Assembly (NCBI RefSeq): GCF_009914755.1
Contig: NC_060933.1
Length of the DNA: 64,000 nt
Strand: one strand, 5' to 3'
Source of the DNA: the human T2T-CHM13v2.0 reference genome, Homo sapiens
Shown: positions 5,306 through 10,430 of the stretch, in pieces
Layout: each line of letters opens with the position of its first letter
Position numbering within the stretch: the stretch's first letter is position 1
Position numbers and translations under genes: made by a program
The notes under the pieces: model-generated
What the model was told of the DNA's origin: nothing
Databases searched by the model: none
The model's input: only the letters and a program-made list of their open reading frames with translations

Positions 5306-5357
5306 CTGATCAAGGTGAGGTTGTGTTCCTGGCACATGCTGAAGTTTTTTCTGCAAA
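5306..5357 (-). CDS. ZNG1A: ZNG1/CBWD coding exon 11 (S|LQKKLQHVPGTQPHLDQ)
   Basis: gtttttag|TTTGCAG...GATCAG|gtaaag; 52 nt; phase 2 in, phase 0 out; cumulative CDS 816 nt = 272 codons. Confidence 0.95.
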
Positions 5358-7086
5358 CTAAAAACAACTGATTAGAAATTCAGAGATGAATACACTTCTG
5401 ATTTAACTTTATACGTTATTTAGTGACACAAGGATAATGAAGTGACTTTCCATAACTGACTATTCTAATATTCTGTAATTGCAATTTTACAAGTTGTTCG
5501 CAAATTCCAATAGAGAAAAGCTGGCAGATTAAGTTTTTTAAAAATTTCTTTAAAAAAAACCACACATTCATATATATACATATGCACAGAATAAAGAGAA
5601 AAACTAGTCTTTTAGCAACACTATTTTGTATGGTTAAATATGTCAGTAAATTTCTTTACCATTCCAACAGGTTTAATACAAACTTAAATATATATAACCA
5701 TTCTAGTATTGCTCAGAGTTCCTTAACTTTCTCCTGCTTCCTAATATGAAAATAATGCTGGCACCTAAAGAAAGTTGAAAGGATAAATTTTCCTTTATCA
5801 ATGTTTTCCCTTGAACTTATTAAAAAAGAAATAGTATCCATAAATATAAATTTGCTATATAGTCAGTTACCAATTGAGAGAAAAAGAAAGTCAGAATGTT
5901 AAAAATGCATTGTTCTGATATGAAAAGCACAAGAAGATCAACATGGCATAACAAATTACAACCATAATAACTGTAGCATACATTTCAACACTGATGGGGA
6001 CAGGACGGGAGGGGGAAAGGACTGAAAACCTTGCAGATGCTTTGCCTTGAAAACAGTGAGGGGTAAATTAGTAACAGCAAGTTCAGGAAAGAGAAAGAAC
6101 TTGTAGGAACTATTGGAGGGAATGAGTCTCTTTGCGGGGTCCTAGTAGGGAGAATGTCAAATTAAATCCTTCCCAGCTGGTTGCTCAGGAAAAGATTCTC
6201 CTGTTTAGCAGTTAAGCACACACAAAAAAGTCATGCAACGGCCTTCCCTATAGTGGTGAGATCACATTAAATAGCTACTTCAAGTGTCACTAAAGCACTA
6301 TAACTGCTCTTAAGTGTATGTAGAATGAGATTACTTTAGAAAAACATTTCGAAAAATCATATGCTTTTCCCATATGTTCAGTATTTAATGTTGTTGGACA
6401 ATGACTGCCTAGAACTTCATACGCAGCAAAAAAAAAAAAAAAAATCTAACAACGAACATTTAAGTTTAGTTCCCATAAGTCTCAGAATTTCATGCCCTCG
6501 ATTTTTTCCCTATCATACACATTTTTAAAAGACTAATCTAGTGGATAAGGATATGCTATCAAAACCTGAAACTCATGAATCGGAAATCATCTTGCACATT
6601 AACTTGTAATCTTATAACAATTTTTGTCTCTGCACACATAAAATGTAAATTCTGCACGCATAAAATGTAAAAAATCTCAAACAGTTTAGTGTTTTGTATA
6701 TTTAAATCATTATGTTCTATAACAAACAATAATTTAGGTATTGTCAGTAAGATGGAATTAGCAACATTTCTATTTCTCCCAAGTAAAAATATAGAATGAT
6801 ATAAAGAACTGGATGCCTTGATGAAAGTACCTGTATTACAGCAAATTATAGCAAAAGACAGAAGTAGAAAGGAAAAACAAAAATTGATATACTGAATATA
6901 GAGGTGGGAAATGATTGCATACTATAATTCTTATTAGTGAAATAAAGCACTAAAGGATACAATATGTAAAGGGAAAAAATAAAATTTCAACTAAAAAATA
7001 TTCTAGTGTTTAACATATTAAATGACAACCAACTTGTAAGCTCTTGGACCCAACAGAGATAAATTAGTTTAAGAAAGGCAAATTTT

Positions 7087-7409
7087 GCTGGGTTCAGTGG
7101 CTCAGGCTTATAATCCCAGCACTTTAAGAGGCCAAGTAGGAGAATCACTTGAGGCCAGGAGTTCAAGACGAGCCTGAGCAACGTAGCGAGAGCCTGTCAC
7201 TACAAAAAAGTAAAAATAAAAAATTAGCCAGGCATGGGTGCAAGCCTGTAGTCCCAGCTACTCAGGAGGCTGAGATGGGAGGATCACTTGAGTCCAGGAG
7301 TTCACGACTGCAGAGAGCCATGATAGCCACTGCATTCCAGCCCAGGTGTCAGAGTGAGACTCTGTCTCAATAAAATAAAATAATTAAATAAATATGAAAA
7401 AAAAGAAAA
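7087..7409 (+). mobile_element. AluJ-like, first of a tandem pair
   Basis: Diverged Alu dimer with A-rich tail. Confidence 0.9.
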
Positions 7410-7710
7410 GGCCAAGTGTGGTGGCTCACGCCTATAATCCCATTACTTTGGGAGGCTGAGGTGGGCAGATCACTTAAGCCCAGGAGTTTAAGATCAGCTT
7501 CGGCAACATGGCAAAACCTCATCTTCTACCAAAATAAAAAATTAGCCAGGCATGGTAGTGCGTGCCTATAGTCCCAGCTACTCATGAGTCTGAGGTGGGA
7601 AGACGGCTTAAGCCCAGGACACAGAGGCTATAGGGAGCTGACATCGCACCACTGCACTCTAGCCTGGGCAATAGACCCAGACCCTGTCTCCAAGGGGAAA
7701 AAAAAAAAAA
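7410..7710 (+). mobile_element. AluJ-like, second of a tandem pair
   Basis: Alu dimer; the pair is flanked by aagaaaggcaaattt at 7071-7085 and 7711-7725. Confidence 0.9.
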
Positions 7711-8946
7711 AAGAAAGGCAAATTTCATGCAGCATTGTTTCATTTGTTCCCCTTGTAAACACATTTAAATGTATCACAGGATCTGTAACTATCAAAACTG
7801 CCCACAGCATCAAATTAAAAATACAGTTCTAATCCAGACACGGCGGATGAAAGGGATCATGGCTAACTAGTGAAACAGCACTGATAGTCAAATGAAGAGC
7901 TGGAACCTTGAAGTAAAAAGAAGAAAAGGATCATCGAGAGAAAAGTTAGGATGGGCTAGACTTCTGGTTATTTCAGAAATGGGTAGCAAAAGACAAAGGC
8001 TCTTAACCTCCCAGAATTAGGTGACAACCTCAGCCAATCTATCTCCCTAGTAAAGCCAGAACTAAGATGGGAAAAAAAGACCATTTTTAAATGAACAAAC
8101 CAAATTTATGCTTAGGGCTGTATTCGCTTAATGGAGGAACAGTCATTTCAAAATTAGTAAAACAAAAGCTTTATATGAAAAAACATAGTATAATTCTGAA
8201 TGATTTTCATACAATCATTATCAAGCATAAGTGATACTGGATACCTGAAGCTGACATGAGGGAAAAAGCCTCAGGGAGATTTCACAACTTTGTACAGCAG
8301 TGGCTTGAAAGGATATAACTATATTTACCATAAAACAAGAAGTAGTCATTTTTACCTTACACAATTTATAAGAATTTTTAGAAAAATAGAAATAACTCAC
8401 ATGTAATTCAGGTATACCAAACTTTCCTGTCTTCCTACTAAATGGAACTAGAAAAGCAAAATGCTGATTTTTTCCAGGTACTCCAAAAATACCTTTATAA
8501 TTTTAACCGTAATTTGTTTAGTCTAAAAAGGTACTGCTCCAATACCAGAAGCTACAGGTGAAAAACATATCTCTCAACTGAAGACAACTTCTTGAATAAC
8601 TGTGTCACTGACAAGTTTACTCTCTGAGCTTCAGTTTCCAAACTGAGAAGGAGGAATAACTGCCCTGCCTGTCCCACACTTCTGGCTGCTGAAATAATCT
8701 CAATCAATTTCTTTTTTCTTTCTTTCTTTTTTTTTTTACAAACTACATGCAAATTTAATTTTTCCAATTCATAAAGTAAAAGGGGTCCAATAAAACACTA
8801 TCATGTCCTACCTCACAGGTTACTGTAGGTATTGTTTTCAAAATGTGAACAATACTACAGACTGAAGGTGGAAAAAAAAAAACTAGTTGAAAGTAGAATC
8901 AGTTTTTAAGGGCATGGCTAAGGCAAAATTAGAAATATATATATAA

Positions 8947-9252
8947 GGCTGGGTGTGGTGGGCTACACATGTAATCCCAGCACTTTGGGAGGCTGAGGCA
9001 TGAGGATCACTTGAGCCCAGGAGTTTGAGACCAGCCTAGGCAACATAGCAAGACACCATGCTTACAGAAAATTAAAAAAAAAAATTAGTCAGGCATGGTG
9101 ACACATGCCTGTGGTCCCAGCTTCTTGGGAGGCTGAGATGGGAGGATCACTTGAGCCCAGGAGGTTGAGGCTGCAGTAAGCCATGTTTGTGCCACTGCAC
9201 TCCAGCCTGAGTGACAGAGAACCCCATCTCAAAAAAATAAATAAAAAGAAAA
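8947..9252 (+). mobile_element. AluJ-like
   Basis: Alu dimer; agaaatatatata on both flanks (TSD). Confidence 0.9.
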
Positions 9253-9289
9253 GAAATATATATAGGAATGGGAATTAGAACTCTCAAAT

Positions 9290-9870
9290 GTAGAGCCACC
9301 CACTATGCCTACCCTTAAGCAAAATTGTCCCACCAATTCAAAATACCCAGAGACATGTCCATTTTCATGATCTTCTATGGACATATACGAGACTTACGAG
9401 ATATTCACTGCAGCATTATTTGCAATAGCCAAGCTGTGAGAACAAGTTAAATGTCCACTAACAGAAAAAGGGATAAAGTAAATGTGGTATATGTAGAAAA
9501 TGGAATATTATTCAGACTTAAAAAGGAAACCTTGCCATATGCAAAAACATGGATGAACCTTGATGACTTTACGCTACGTGAAATAAACCAGTCACAGAAA
9601 GACAAATAATGCATGATTCCACTTGCGTCAGGTAATTAAAATAGTCAACCCCATAGAAAGAGTGTAGAATGGTGGATGCCAGGGGCTATGAAGACAGGGA
9701 AATGGGAAGCTGCTATTCAAGGGGTATAAAGCTTCAGTTATAAAGAGTGAAACATTCCAGAGATCTGCTGCACATCCTCATGCCTATAGTTAGCAATACT
9801 GTATTGTACACTTAAAAAATTGTTAAGAGGGTAGATCTCATGTTAGATGTTCTTACTACAATAAAAAAAA
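9290..9870 (+). mobile_element. L1MB-like 3' end
   Basis: aatgtggtatatgtagaaaatggaatattattcag...acatggatgaaccttga...agacaaataatgcatgattccactt and A-tail. Confidence 0.8.
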
Positions 9871-10121
9871 GAAAAAGATACTGATGCACAAGAATAACTA
9901 ATCTTTCTTCCCTCCCTTACCAAAAAGATTCCCCACAGGAGAAGGCAGAAAACTAATCCATTATTAAAGTGAACAGAGGAGAGAGGAGCCAAGATGGCCA
10001 AATAGGAACAGCTCCGGTCTACAGCTCCCAGCGTGAGAGACGCAGAAGACAGGCGATTTCTCCATTTCCATCTGAGGTACCGGGTTCATCTCACTAGGGA
10101 GTGCCAGACAGTGGGCGCAGG

Positions 10122-10430
10122 TCAGTGGGTGCGTGCACCATCCGCGAGCCGAAGCAGGGCGAGGCATTGCCTCACTTGGGAAGCGCAGGGGGTCAGGGAG
10201 TTCCCTTTCCTAGTCAAAGAAAGGGGTGACAGACGGCACCTGGAAGATCGGGTCACTCCCACCCCAATACTGCGCTTTTCCGATGGGCTTAAAAAACGGC
10301 GCACCACGAGATTATATCCCGCACCTGGCTCGGAGGGTCCCACGCCCACAGAGTCTCGCTGATTGCTAGCACAGCAGTCTGAGATCAAACTGCAAGGCGG
10401 CAGCGAGGCTCGGGGAGGGGCGCTGGCCAT
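10122..10430 (-). CDS. L1 ORF0 homolog (antisense 5'UTR ORF), 102 aa, both internal splice donors present
   Basis: ATG at 10430; MASAPPRASLPPCSLISDCCASNQRDSVGVGPSEPG... matches primate L1 ORF0. Donors CCAG|GTGCGG after 10325 (nt 106) and CCAG|GTGCCG after 10240 (nt 191). Confidence 0.8.
   Translation of the reverse strand: MASAPPRASLPPCSLISDCCASNQRDSVGVGPSEPGAGYNLVVRRFLSPSEKRSIGVGVTRSSRCRLSPLSLTRKGNSLTPCASQVRQCLALLRLADGARTH

What the first reader, a model, noticed from the sequence alone, without database searches (positions are those of the whole stretch)
5306..10430. L1 ORF0 splice donor 2 is in frame with ZNG1 exon 11: predicted L1-driven ORF0::ZNG1 C-terminal fusion protein
Seen: the L1 is antisense in intron 10, so its antisense promoter points toward exon 11. 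ORF0 starts at 10430 and is open. Its second donor (TCCAG|GTGCCG, last exonic base 10240) falls after 191 nt = 63 codons + 2, the same phase 2 as the exon 11 acceptor. Splicing gives ...GVGVTRSS-S-LQKKLQHVPGTQPHLDQ..., continuing into the downstream CobW C-terminal exons. Donor 1 (nt 106, phase 1) is out of frame. Known: primate L1 ORF0 forms fusions with nearby exons through these donors. Inference: an isoform with 63 ORF0 residues (including a CC pair) on the ZNG1 C-terminal domain, lacking the GTPase, CxCC and METAP1-docking motifs. It would be expected where L1 is derepressed (embryo, germline, tumour), and possibly from every paralog sharing this L1.
Basis: partly seen in the sequence, partly recalled or inferred. 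Interest (0 to 1): 0.85.

Follow-up and report, generated by a model that had tools for sequence, protein, structure and literature searches.

The report
L1 ORF0 in frame with ZNG1A
An old L1 retrotransposon in a ZNG1A intron has an antisense mini-gene that would read in frame into the next ZNG1A exon, but this is a one-in-three coincidence, the copy is heavily methylated in every cell line tested, and no fusion protein has been shown.

Summary
The sequence observation holds. A full-length L1PA3 (window ~9979-16084, + strand) lies antisense in ZNG1A intron 10. Its ORF0 ATG (10430) to the second donor (last exonic base 10240) is 191 nt, phase 2, which matches the exon 11 acceptor. A spliced product would be a 204-aa ORF0::CobW_C protein ending at the native stop.

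The anatomy is generic to this L1 subfamily. L1 donors exist in all three phases, so some frame match was guaranteed.

All 7 ZNG1 copies in the genome share the L1, and 5 of 7 could encode the full fusion.

Published tables change the picture:
- ESTs starting in this L1PA3 and running into CBWD5/6 are already catalogued (2016). None of the 3 had a Met-started ORF of 100 aa or more.
- The ZNG1A copy is 88-98% methylated in 12 of 12 cell lines, including H1 and 2102Ep. The ZNG1B and ZNG1E copies are 37% and 28% methylated in 2102Ep.
- Brain and glioma read pairs over this L1 are unspliced across the donor and were not validated.

The donor lacks +5 G, and ORF0 evolves neutrally.

Verdict: a new, unproven candidate of a known kind. 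Any expression is more likely from paralogs than from ZNG1A.

The parts
9979..16084 (+). Full-length L1 (L1PA3 by RepeatMasker in two published tables), antisense to ZNG1A in intron 10. ORF1 is open and ORF2 is broken into at least 3 frames.
   Evidence: One search gives the 5' end, A-rich tail and ORF map. Searches list this locus as L1PA3 chr9:139648-145712 (+), full-length, CBWD1. One search shows 96-97% identity to many other L1 5'UTRs.
9966..9978 (.). 5' copy of the target-site-duplication-like repeat AAAGTGAA[C/G]AGAG. The 3' copy is at 16085-16097.
   Evidence: string positions 9966 and 16085.
10378..10578 (-). Expected antisense promoter and start-site zone (L1 nt ~400-600). Placed by analogy, not measured here.
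   Evidence: Criscione 2016 text: the antisense ESTs map within the first 600 bp, with the primary start at ~400 bp. No upstream ATG lies within 300 nt of the ORF0 ATG.
10122..10430 (-). Unspliced ORF0 of 102 codons plus stop. The ATG is at L1 nt 452.
10240..10430 (-). ORF0 segment retained if the second donor is used: 191 nt, which is 63 codons plus 2 nt.
10320..10328 (-). First donor CAG|GTGCGG (last exonic base 10325, phase 1). Splicing to exon 11 gives an 83-aa product with a premature stop 171 nt before the last exon junction.
10234..10242 (-). Second donor CAG|GTGCCG (last exonic base 10240, phase 2). It lacks G at +5.
5358..10239 (-). The 4882-nt interval that would be removed as an intron. 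It has no AATAAA and three ATTAAA.
5306..5357 (-). ZNG1A exon 11 (52 nt). The acceptor is ttgtttttag|TTTG and takes 2 carried bases.
   Evidence: and the hub annotation.
16434..16490 (-). ZNG1A exon 11's normal upstream partner, exon 10. It ends in AG, giving the same AGT Ser codon at the junction.

Best explanation
This is an ordinary fixed L1PA3. It is full-length, with ORF2 broken, and it inserted antisense into intron 10 of the ancestral ZNG1 gene before the hominid segmental duplications. All 7 copies in this genome therefore carry it.

Its antisense promoter can act as a cryptic alternative promoter. RNA would start in the L1 5'UTR, splice from an L1 donor to exon 11, and continue through exons 12-15. 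Transcripts of this general kind have been recorded as ESTs from paralogs.

The match between the ORF0 ATG, the second donor and the exon 11 phase is real, and it is a coincidence of phase. In ZNG1A the L1 promoter is kept methylated, most likely because the host gene transcribes through it, so this copy is silent or nearly silent in the cells examined so far.

Where a copy is demethylated (ZNG1B and ZNG1E in 2102Ep cells), most antisense RNAs are expected to take one of three unproductive routes:
- they start at or below the ATG;
- they use the stronger, out-of-frame first donor, giving an 83-aa product with a premature stop;
- they stay unspliced.

The 204-aa ORF0::CobW_C fusion would then be at most a rare, unselected by-product.

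Shown: the sequence anatomy, the copy comparison, the published methylation values and the EST listings. Inferred: which donor and start site are used, and that methylation silences this copy.
For: - Anatomy and phases.
- Generic family layout: 18 of 28 identical donor and 19 of 28 identical 102-aa ORF among the closest unrelated copies.
- All 7 copies share the L1 with no indel between the ATG and the second donor.
- No coding constraint. 17 of 23 variable ORF0 codons change the residue, and pN exceeds pS in 12 of 21 non-independent pairs. The 601-nt L1 segment containing ORF0 is 95.1-97.5% identical between copies, against 98.1-99.0% for the neighbouring non-L1 intron. 17 of 29 variable ORF0 sites lie at CpGs, which is a mark of long-term germline methylation.
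- Methylation of this very copy is 0.877-0.981 in 12 of 12 lines, and 0.958 even in K562. That paper reports most L1HS copies unmethylated in K562, except copies co-transcribed with genes.
- The ZNG1B copy is 0.372 and the ZNG1E copy 0.281 in 2102Ep.
- ESTs BG202278, BM756434 and BM739851 start antisense in L1PA3 and overlap CBWD6/CBWD5 exons. 0 of 3 appear in the table of Met-started ORFs of 100 aa or more.
- CLIFinder pairs over this L1 are contiguous across the second donor, number 1-4 reads, and are marked not validated.
- Donor ranking from a recalled position matrix: first donor 4.1, second donor 0.03.
Against: - The second donor is commonly used in other L1s. About 42 of 53 EST rows carrying its exonic motif are spliced there, against about 29 of 76 at the first donor. 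Those rows come mostly from elements with a different exonic motif, and the intronic bases of the spliced ones are unknown.
- A weak score does not bar use. Native constitutive ZNG1A donors score as low as -1.6 on the same scale.
- Products of the other two donors carry premature stops. Nonsense-mediated decay would therefore enrich the in-frame isoform among stable RNAs.
- The interval to exon 11 has no AATAAA, and no upstream ATG precedes ORF0.
- The methylation assay reads the first 15 CpGs at the L1 5' end, not the antisense start zone itself. Testis, early embryo and most tumours were not sampled.
- Mapping among 98-99% identical duplications may blur copy assignment.
- EST absence from the ORF table could reflect sequencing errors.
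Confidence: 0.65

Rival explanations
1. In L1-permissive cells the ZNG1A L1 antisense promoter fires upstream of the ORF0 ATG, the second donor splices to exon 11, and a 204-aa ORF0::ZNG1A C-terminal protein is made at biologically relevant levels.
For: - In-frame geometry and the native stop.
- Strong start context and no upstream ATG.
- No AATAAA in the interval.
- The second donor is widely used in other L1s.
- Minus-strand RNA over the L1 5' end is present in brain and glioma.
Against: - This copy is 88-98% methylated in 12 of 12 lines, including H1, 2102Ep, K562, MCF7 and HepG2.
- The hub annotation lists no ZNG1A exon inside the L1 5'UTR among 29 transcripts.
- No L1PA3-initiated CBWD1 EST appears in Criscione Table S1. 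The only CBWD1 row is a HAL1b start.
- The CLIFinder pairs are unspliced across the donor and not validated.
- The donor lacks +5 G.
Confidence: 0.07
2. The fusion protein is real but comes from paralog copies. Hypomethylated L1PA3 copies in ZNG1B (chr2) and ZNG1E-type genes produce the in-frame ORF0::ZNG1 isoform in embryonal-carcinoma-like, germline or tumour cells.
For: - 5 of 7 copies keep a complete 204-aa reading frame.
- The ZNG1B and ZNG1E L1s are 37% and 28% methylated in 2102Ep.
- ESTs from SNU-668 and HT1080 start in the paralog L1PA3 and reach CBWD 3' exons.
- EST span geometry places the shared 5' end of two ESTs within roughly 100 nt either side of the ATG (my arithmetic).
Against: - 0 of 3 ESTs have a Met-started ORF of 100 aa or more.
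- About 21 of 75 sampled antisense EST rows include the ATG context.
- The weak donor and neutral ORF0 evolution.
- 'cbwd' occurs in only one of the 9 held supplement files of Lanciano 2024, the methylation table. It is therefore not in any held list of their 42 MCF-7 chimeric transcripts.
Confidence: 0.2
3. There is no antisense promoter activity at any ZNG1 copy. The RNA signals are host pre-mRNA or exonisation, and the ESTs are truncated cDNAs of intron-containing host transcripts.
For: - The L1 lies in an intron transcribed in the same direction as its antisense promoter, so unspliced pairs are what pre-mRNA gives.
- Pinson's title conclusion is that such transcripts follow the host locus (listing).
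- Most copies are highly methylated in most lines.
Against: - Criscione removed cases with an independent EST supporting exonisation and required spliced ESTs whose 5' end lies in the L1.
- Two independent libraries (SNU-668, HT1080) gave such ESTs, and two ESTs share one 5' end.
- Two copies are hypomethylated in 2102Ep.
Confidence: 0.08

Closest known systems
L1 ORF0 and ORF0-exon fusion proteins (Denli et al. 2015, Cell 163:583). Known to me only through citing papers; the paper itself is not held.
   Same: An antisense ORF in the 5'UTR of an L1PA1-8 element, downstream of the antisense promoter. It has a strong start context and two internal donors able to join downstream host exons. About 3200 genic loci exist, and 57 were seen fused.
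   Different: Here the unspliced ORF is 102 aa, not 70-71 aa. The second donor is GTGCCG rather than the GTGCGT seen in the younger-type ESTs. No transcript or peptide evidence exists for this fusion. The CBWD rows are marked 'not previously identified' in a table that was cross-referenced to the ORF0 fusion list.
L1 antisense-promoter chimeric transcripts: Speek 2001 and Nigumann 2002 (recalled), and Criscione 2016 (sections and supplements read).
   Same: An intronic full-length L1PA3, antisense to the host gene, gives transcripts that begin in the L1 and continue in host exons. L1PA3-CBWD5/6 ESTs are among the 988 catalogued.
   Different: The catalogued ESTs map to paralogs, not to ZNG1A. 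Their exon structure and donor were not visible to me.
MET and other alternative transcripts driven by L1 promoter hypomethylation in cancer. Seen only as references listed.
   Same: An N-terminally truncated host product from an intronic L1 antisense promoter, dependent on loss of methylation.
   Different: No disease link, expression level or protein has been shown for ZNG1.

Membership tests
L1 ORF0 | Lies antisense in the 5'UTR of a primate L1PA1-L1PA8 element | tested here: met
   The L1 is on the + strand at 9979-16084 and the ORF is on the - strand at L1 nt 452 downward. The locus is listed as L1PA3 in two published tables.
L1 ORF0 | ATG in a strong initiation context with no upstream ATG in the antisense leader | tested here: met
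   The context is GGGCAATGG, and there is no ATG in the 300 nt upstream, in 7 of 7 copies.
L1 ORF0 | Two splice donors inside the ORF | tested here: met
   CAG|GT occurs at nt 106 and nt 191. The same two positions are used as junctions in published L1 antisense ESTs. Use at this locus was not tested.
L1 ORF0 | About 70-71 aa when unspliced | tested here: not met
   The ORF is 102 aa here and in 19 of 28 close relatives. It is 85 aa in 3 of the 7 ZNG1 copies. This is a subfamily variant of the C-terminal end.
ORF0-host exon fusion | The donor phase matches the acceptor phase, so the host frame is read | tested here: met
   The donor is at 191 nt (phase 2), and 764 nt of upstream CDS also leave phase 2. 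The result is a 204-aa ORF ending at the native stop.
ORF0-host exon fusion | A transcript starting upstream of the ATG and spliced from an ORF0 donor to the host exon | not testable with these tools
   No RNA-seq, CAGE or EST sequences are available. Indirect evidence: paralog ESTs exist, but 0 of 3 carry a Met-started ORF of 100 aa or more.
ORF0-host exon fusion | Evidence of translation (ribosome footprints or peptides) | not testable with these tools
   No proteomic or Ribo-seq resource is available.
Active L1 antisense promoter locus | Hypomethylated 5'UTR in the expressing cell type | tested here: not met
   Published bs-ATLAS-seq values for this copy are 0.877-0.981 in 12 of 12 lines. 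The condition is met in 2102Ep for the ZNG1B copy (0.372) and the ZNG1E copy (0.281).
COG0523 / CobW C-terminal domain (the part retained) | Match to Pfam PF07683 above the curated cut-off in exons downstream of exon 11 | tested here: met
   Exon 14 alone matches with E 6.2e-7 and 29.6 bits against a cut-off of 22, covering profile positions 35-76. The genome scan finds it in 7 copies. Exons 12-13 are too short to score on their own.

The most novel reading that the evidence does not exclude
Hominid-specific 204-aa proteins, made of 63 residues of L1 ORF0 on a complete GTPase-less ZNG1 CobW_C domain, are translated from the hypomethylated L1PA3 copies of ZNG1B/ZNG1E-type paralogs. ZNG1A would contribute only when gene-body methylation is lost. 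Expression would occur in early-embryo, germline or tumour cells. The free C-terminal domain would interfere with, or add to, zinc handover by full-length ZNG1.
Probability: 0.07. Interest if true: 0.6.

Novelty: new member of a known kind. Interest (0 to 1): 0.25.

Why it matters
If it is made, this would be a retrotransposon-created, ape-specific isoform of a zinc metallochaperone family. It would be present in up to five gene copies and would lack the catalytic half, so it could be a natural dominant-negative or a neo-antigen in L1-derepressed tumours.

As things stand, it mainly shows that phase-compatible ORF0-exon pairs are expected by chance at roughly a third of the ~3200 genic ORF0 loci. 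Locus-level methylation and start-site data, not sequence, decide which ones matter.

Tried and rejected
- Denli 2015, Speek 2001 and Matlik 2006 could not be read. The official donor coordinates and the list of 57 fusions were therefore not seen. The supplements of Denli 2015 may bear on whether CBWD genes are listed.
- Full-text searches found no paper linking these genes to L1 antisense transcription in its main text. The searches were CBWD1 + antisense promoter + LINE-1 (0 papers), CBWD + L1PA3 (2 papers held, 1 listed and read, irrelevant), CBWD + chimeric transcript + LINE-1 (1 paper, irrelevant), and ZNG1/isoform/CobW (nothing relevant in the 15 listed). The relevant data were only in supplementary tables.
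- Earlier findings of this scan were not open.
- EST span arithmetic was tried, using hg19 spans of 18,130, 18,613 and 19,361 bp against T2T copy geometry. It places the SNU-668 EST start within roughly 100 nt either side of the ATG. It cannot say whether the ATG is included, and it cannot assign BG202278. I rejected it as decisive.
- I considered selection keeping the frame open in all 7 copies. With 29 variable sites and no stop, chance alone is adequate, and pN is about equal to pS.
- Pfam on single exons 12, 13 and 15 and on the ORF0 peptide gave nothing usable.
- No structure or complex prediction was attempted. It would not bear on whether the RNA exists.

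
Full report
**1. What is in the sequence**

Read on the minus strand, window 10800-10000 is the reverse complement of an L1 5'UTR. On the plus strand the element begins at about 9979 (GGAGAGAGGAGCCAAGATGG...). 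It ends in an A-rich tail at about 16084. It is flanked by a 13-nt repeat, AAAGTGAA[C/G]AGAG, at 9966 and 16085. ORF1 is still open: a 352-codon stop-to-stop frame from 10872. ORF2 is split over at least three frames. The element is therefore full-length but not competent to retrotranspose.

It lies between ZNG1A exon 10 (16434-16490) and exon 11 (5306-5357), opposite to the gene. Its antisense promoter therefore points at exon 11.

**2. The observation**

- The minus-strand ATG at 10430 is L1 nt 452 and sits in GGGCAATGG.
- The frame is open for 102 codons.
- GT dinucleotides in a CAG|GT context follow after 106 nt (phase 1) and after 191 nt (phase 2, last exonic base 10240).
- The annotated coding exons upstream of exon 11 add to 764 nt, so exon 11 expects two carried bases.
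- The join reads ...TRSS-S-LQKK... in the native frame.

I located exons 12-15, which lie outside the window, by splice-site and reading-frame logic on fetched DNA. In window coordinates they are -6431..-6499, -6603..-6668, -7794..-7923, and from -8311 onward. Their coding lengths of 69, 66, 130 and 107 nt sum to 372 nt. That gives 395 aa for ZNG1A, which agrees with the length I recall. Exon 14 alone matches Pfam CobW_C above the cut-off (genome scan).

The three possible spliced products differ:
- Second donor: 204 aa (63 ORF0 residues, the junction Ser, and 140 ZNG1A residues), ending at the native stop.
- First donor: 83 aa, with a premature stop 171 nt before the last junction.
- A third plausible GT at nt 255: 100 aa, also with a premature stop.

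**3. Is it more than chance?**

No. One donor matches one acceptor with probability 1/3, and the L1 strand offers candidate donors in all three phases.

The ORF0 layout is the subfamily norm. I examined the 28 closest unrelated L1 copies, which were the best loci of 40 scored out of 4534 candidates. Their tallies:
- 28 of 28 keep the ATG context.
- 26 of 28 have GT at nt 191.
- 18 of 28 have exactly CAG|GTGCCG.
- 19 of 28 have the 102-aa ORF.

**4. The paralogs**

The genome holds 7 copies of the exon 11 region, six on chr9 and one on chr2. All 7 carry the same L1 5'UTR at the same place. None has an indel between the ATG and the second donor, all keep the ATG and GT at both donors, and none has an upstream ATG within 300 nt.

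With exons 11-15 read in each copy, 5 of 7 give an uninterrupted 204-aa fusion frame. One copy (chr9 80.46 Mb) has an extra A in exon 11. One copy (chr9 80.06-80.08 Mb) has a stop in exon 12 and a TGA in exon 14.

The ORF0 peptide is not conserved:
- 17 of 23 variable codons change the residue, and pN exceeds pS in 12 of 21 non-independent pairs.
- The L1 segment is 95.1-97.5% identical between copies, while the adjacent non-L1 intron is 98.1-99.0% identical.
- 17 of 29 variable ORF0 sites are at CpGs.

This is the pattern of a methylated, unconstrained CpG-rich promoter.

**5. What published data say about this locus**

*(a) Criscione et al. 2016 (PMC4908685).* I read sections 7 and 13, passages, and supplements 3 and 5 in part.
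- Table S1 lists ESTs whose 5' end lies antisense in an L1PA3 and which overlap CBWD exons. BG202278 (HT1080) maps to CBWD6 with a single alignment spanning 19,361 bp. BM756434 and BM739851 (SNU-668) map multiply to CBWD5-type copies, spanning 18,130-18,613 bp.
- These spans fit a start in the L1 and an end in exons 14-15.
- The rows are flagged as not previously reported, in a table cross-referenced to the ORF0 fusion list.
- No L1PA3 row exists for CBWD1. Its only row is a different, HAL1b-initiated EST.
- None of the three ESTs appears in Table S3, which lists every EST with a Met-started TransDecoder ORF of at least 100 aa.
- An EST that held the ATG, the second donor and exons 11-14 would encode about 169 aa and should be listed there.

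*(b) Motif counts in the EST sequences of Table S3.* Cells are cut at 400 characters, and rows are not unique ESTs.
- The exonic motif before the second donor occurs 53 times. In 11 of these it continues unspliced (followed by GTG), which leaves about 42 spliced there.
- The motif before the first donor occurs 76 times. In 47 of these it continues unspliced, which leaves about 29 spliced there.
- Both donors are therefore real and in common use in L1 antisense ESTs.
- The ATG context occurs 22 times (at least one is a chance hit), against 75 for a motif just upstream of the first donor. The text places the primary antisense start at about L1 nt 400, which is below the ATG at nt 452. Most sampled antisense ESTs therefore lack the ORF0 start codon.

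*(c) Lanciano et al. 2024 (PMC10879037).* I read Table S2, its legend and passages. The table lists this very element as chr9:139648-145712, +, L1PA3, full-length, CBWD1. Methylated-CpG fractions:

| L1 copy | Methylated-CpG fraction |
|---|---|
| ZNG1A (this window) | 0.919 (2102Ep), 0.956, 0.981, 0.981, 0.918, 0.979, 0.958 (K562), 0.980 (MCF7), 0.979, 0.877, 0.923, 0.886 (H1) |
| CBWD2/ZNG1B | 0.372 in 2102Ep; 0.85-0.99 in the other lines |
| CBWD5/ZNG1E | 0.281 in 2102Ep; 0.757 in K562 |
| CBWD3 | Seen in two fibroblast lines only: 0.92 and 0.98 |

The assay covers the first 15 CpGs of the L1. The paper attributes retained L1 methylation in K562 to co-transcription with host genes.

*(d) Pinson et al. 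2022 (PMC9396940, Table S2 header and rows).* The table lists a CLIFinder chimera for this L1 (Id_1731).
- Read counts are 0,1,4,0,0,0,2,1 in 8 gliomas and 2,3,1 in 3 control brains.
- The L1-side reads are at 139650-139982 and the unique-side reads at 139468-139716.
- Converted with the L1 start as anchor, these are about window 9981-10313 and 9799-10047. The fragments therefore run contiguously across the second donor.
- The entry is marked not validated and without EST support.
- Because the host gene transcribes this intron in the same direction, these fragments may simply be pre-mRNA.

**6. Splicing plausibility**

On a donor frequency matrix that I wrote from memory, usable for ranking only, the scores are:

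| Donor | Score |
|---|---|
| First donor, CAG\|GTGCGG | 4.1 |
| Second donor here, CAG\|GTGCCG | 0.03 |
| GTGCGT form of the second donor | 5.2 |
| Native ZNG1A donors | -1.6 to 8.5 |

The GTGCGT form is seen in 1 of 28 relatives and in unspliced younger-type ESTs. In this subfamily the in-frame donor is thus the weaker of the two, though not unusably weak.

The 4882-nt interval has no AATAAA and three ATTAAA. Decay of the two out-of-frame products would enrich the in-frame form among stable RNAs.

**7. Reading**

- The element is an ordinary intronic L1PA3 whose antisense promoter is a potential cryptic promoter for the 3' third of ZNG1 genes.
- Chimeric RNAs of this type are documented for paralogs.
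- The ZNG1A copy is methylated wherever it has been measured.
- The in-frame fusion is possible, but it is unproven and unselected.
- The one indirect test available (ORF content of the ESTs) does not favour it.
- If the protein exists, the ZNG1B and ZNG1E-type copies in embryonal-carcinoma-like cells are the likeliest source.

**8. Comparison and novelty**

It works like the ORF0-exon fusions and L1 antisense chimeric transcripts already described. As a member of the ORF0 family it meets location, start context and donors, but not the 70-aa length. As a member of the set of observed ORF0 fusions it is untested.

It is a new candidate of a known kind. The transcript class is already catalogued for paralogs in a 2016 supplementary table.

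**9. Limits**

- I had no access to EST sequences, RNA-seq, CAGE, Ribo-seq or proteomes.
- Denli 2015 and its supplements were not available.
- hg19/hg38 coordinates were converted to window coordinates with a single anchor.
- Copy assignment in published short-read data may be imperfect among near-identical duplications.

Noticed in passing
L012 (G000:C9:80451900-80459900), exon 11 near locus position 7770-7822: This ZNG1 copy has seven A's instead of six in exon 11 (53 nt). That frameshifts both the native protein and any fusion.
   Followed up: partly
L049 / G000:C9:80061647-80064447, and the hit at C9:80062507-80062647: This ZNG1 copy has a stop codon in exon 12 and a TGA inside the CobW_C exon 14. 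It looks like a pseudogene copy.
   Followed up: partly
window 5299 (start of LOC105375942 exon 3089-5299, minus strand): The predicted lncRNA begins 7 nt downstream of the end of ZNG1A exon 11 (5306) on the same strand. It looks more like read-through or retention of intron 11 than an independent gene.
   Followed up: no
window 9629-10242: The RefSeq 'enhancer' element covers the L1 5' end (L1 nt 1-264, the sense-promoter core) plus 350 nt of flank. Its upper edge falls 2 nt from the second ORF0 donor. The source assay is unknown to me.
   Followed up: no
window ~16432-37936 (converted from hg19 chr9:146101-167605): Criscione 2016 Table S1 lists a testis EST (DB441926) that starts antisense in a HAL1b element further upstream in CBWD1 and ends at about exon 10. 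A matching HAL1b EST is listed for CBWD2. This is a second, older L1-derived start in the same gene.
   Followed up: no
window 10872-11930: ORF1 of this roughly 12-15-million-year-old (age recalled) L1PA3 is still an open frame of full length, although ORF2 is broken.
   Followed up: no
exon 11 to exon 14 interval: ZNG1A versus the other copies; L009: ZNG1A has about 170-210 nt more between exon 11 and exon 14 than the six other copies (13,351 against 13,143-13,183). The copy at chr9 77.0 Mb has about 330 nt extra between the L1 and exon 11.
   Followed up: no
window 10421-10427 (minus-strand ATGGCCAGC against ATGGCGGGC in the other 6 copies and in 22 of 28 relatives): The ZNG1A copy has lost a CpG in codons 2-3 of ORF0 and has a private Pro-to-Arg change at codon 7. 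These private changes could help assign reads to this copy.
   Followed up: partly
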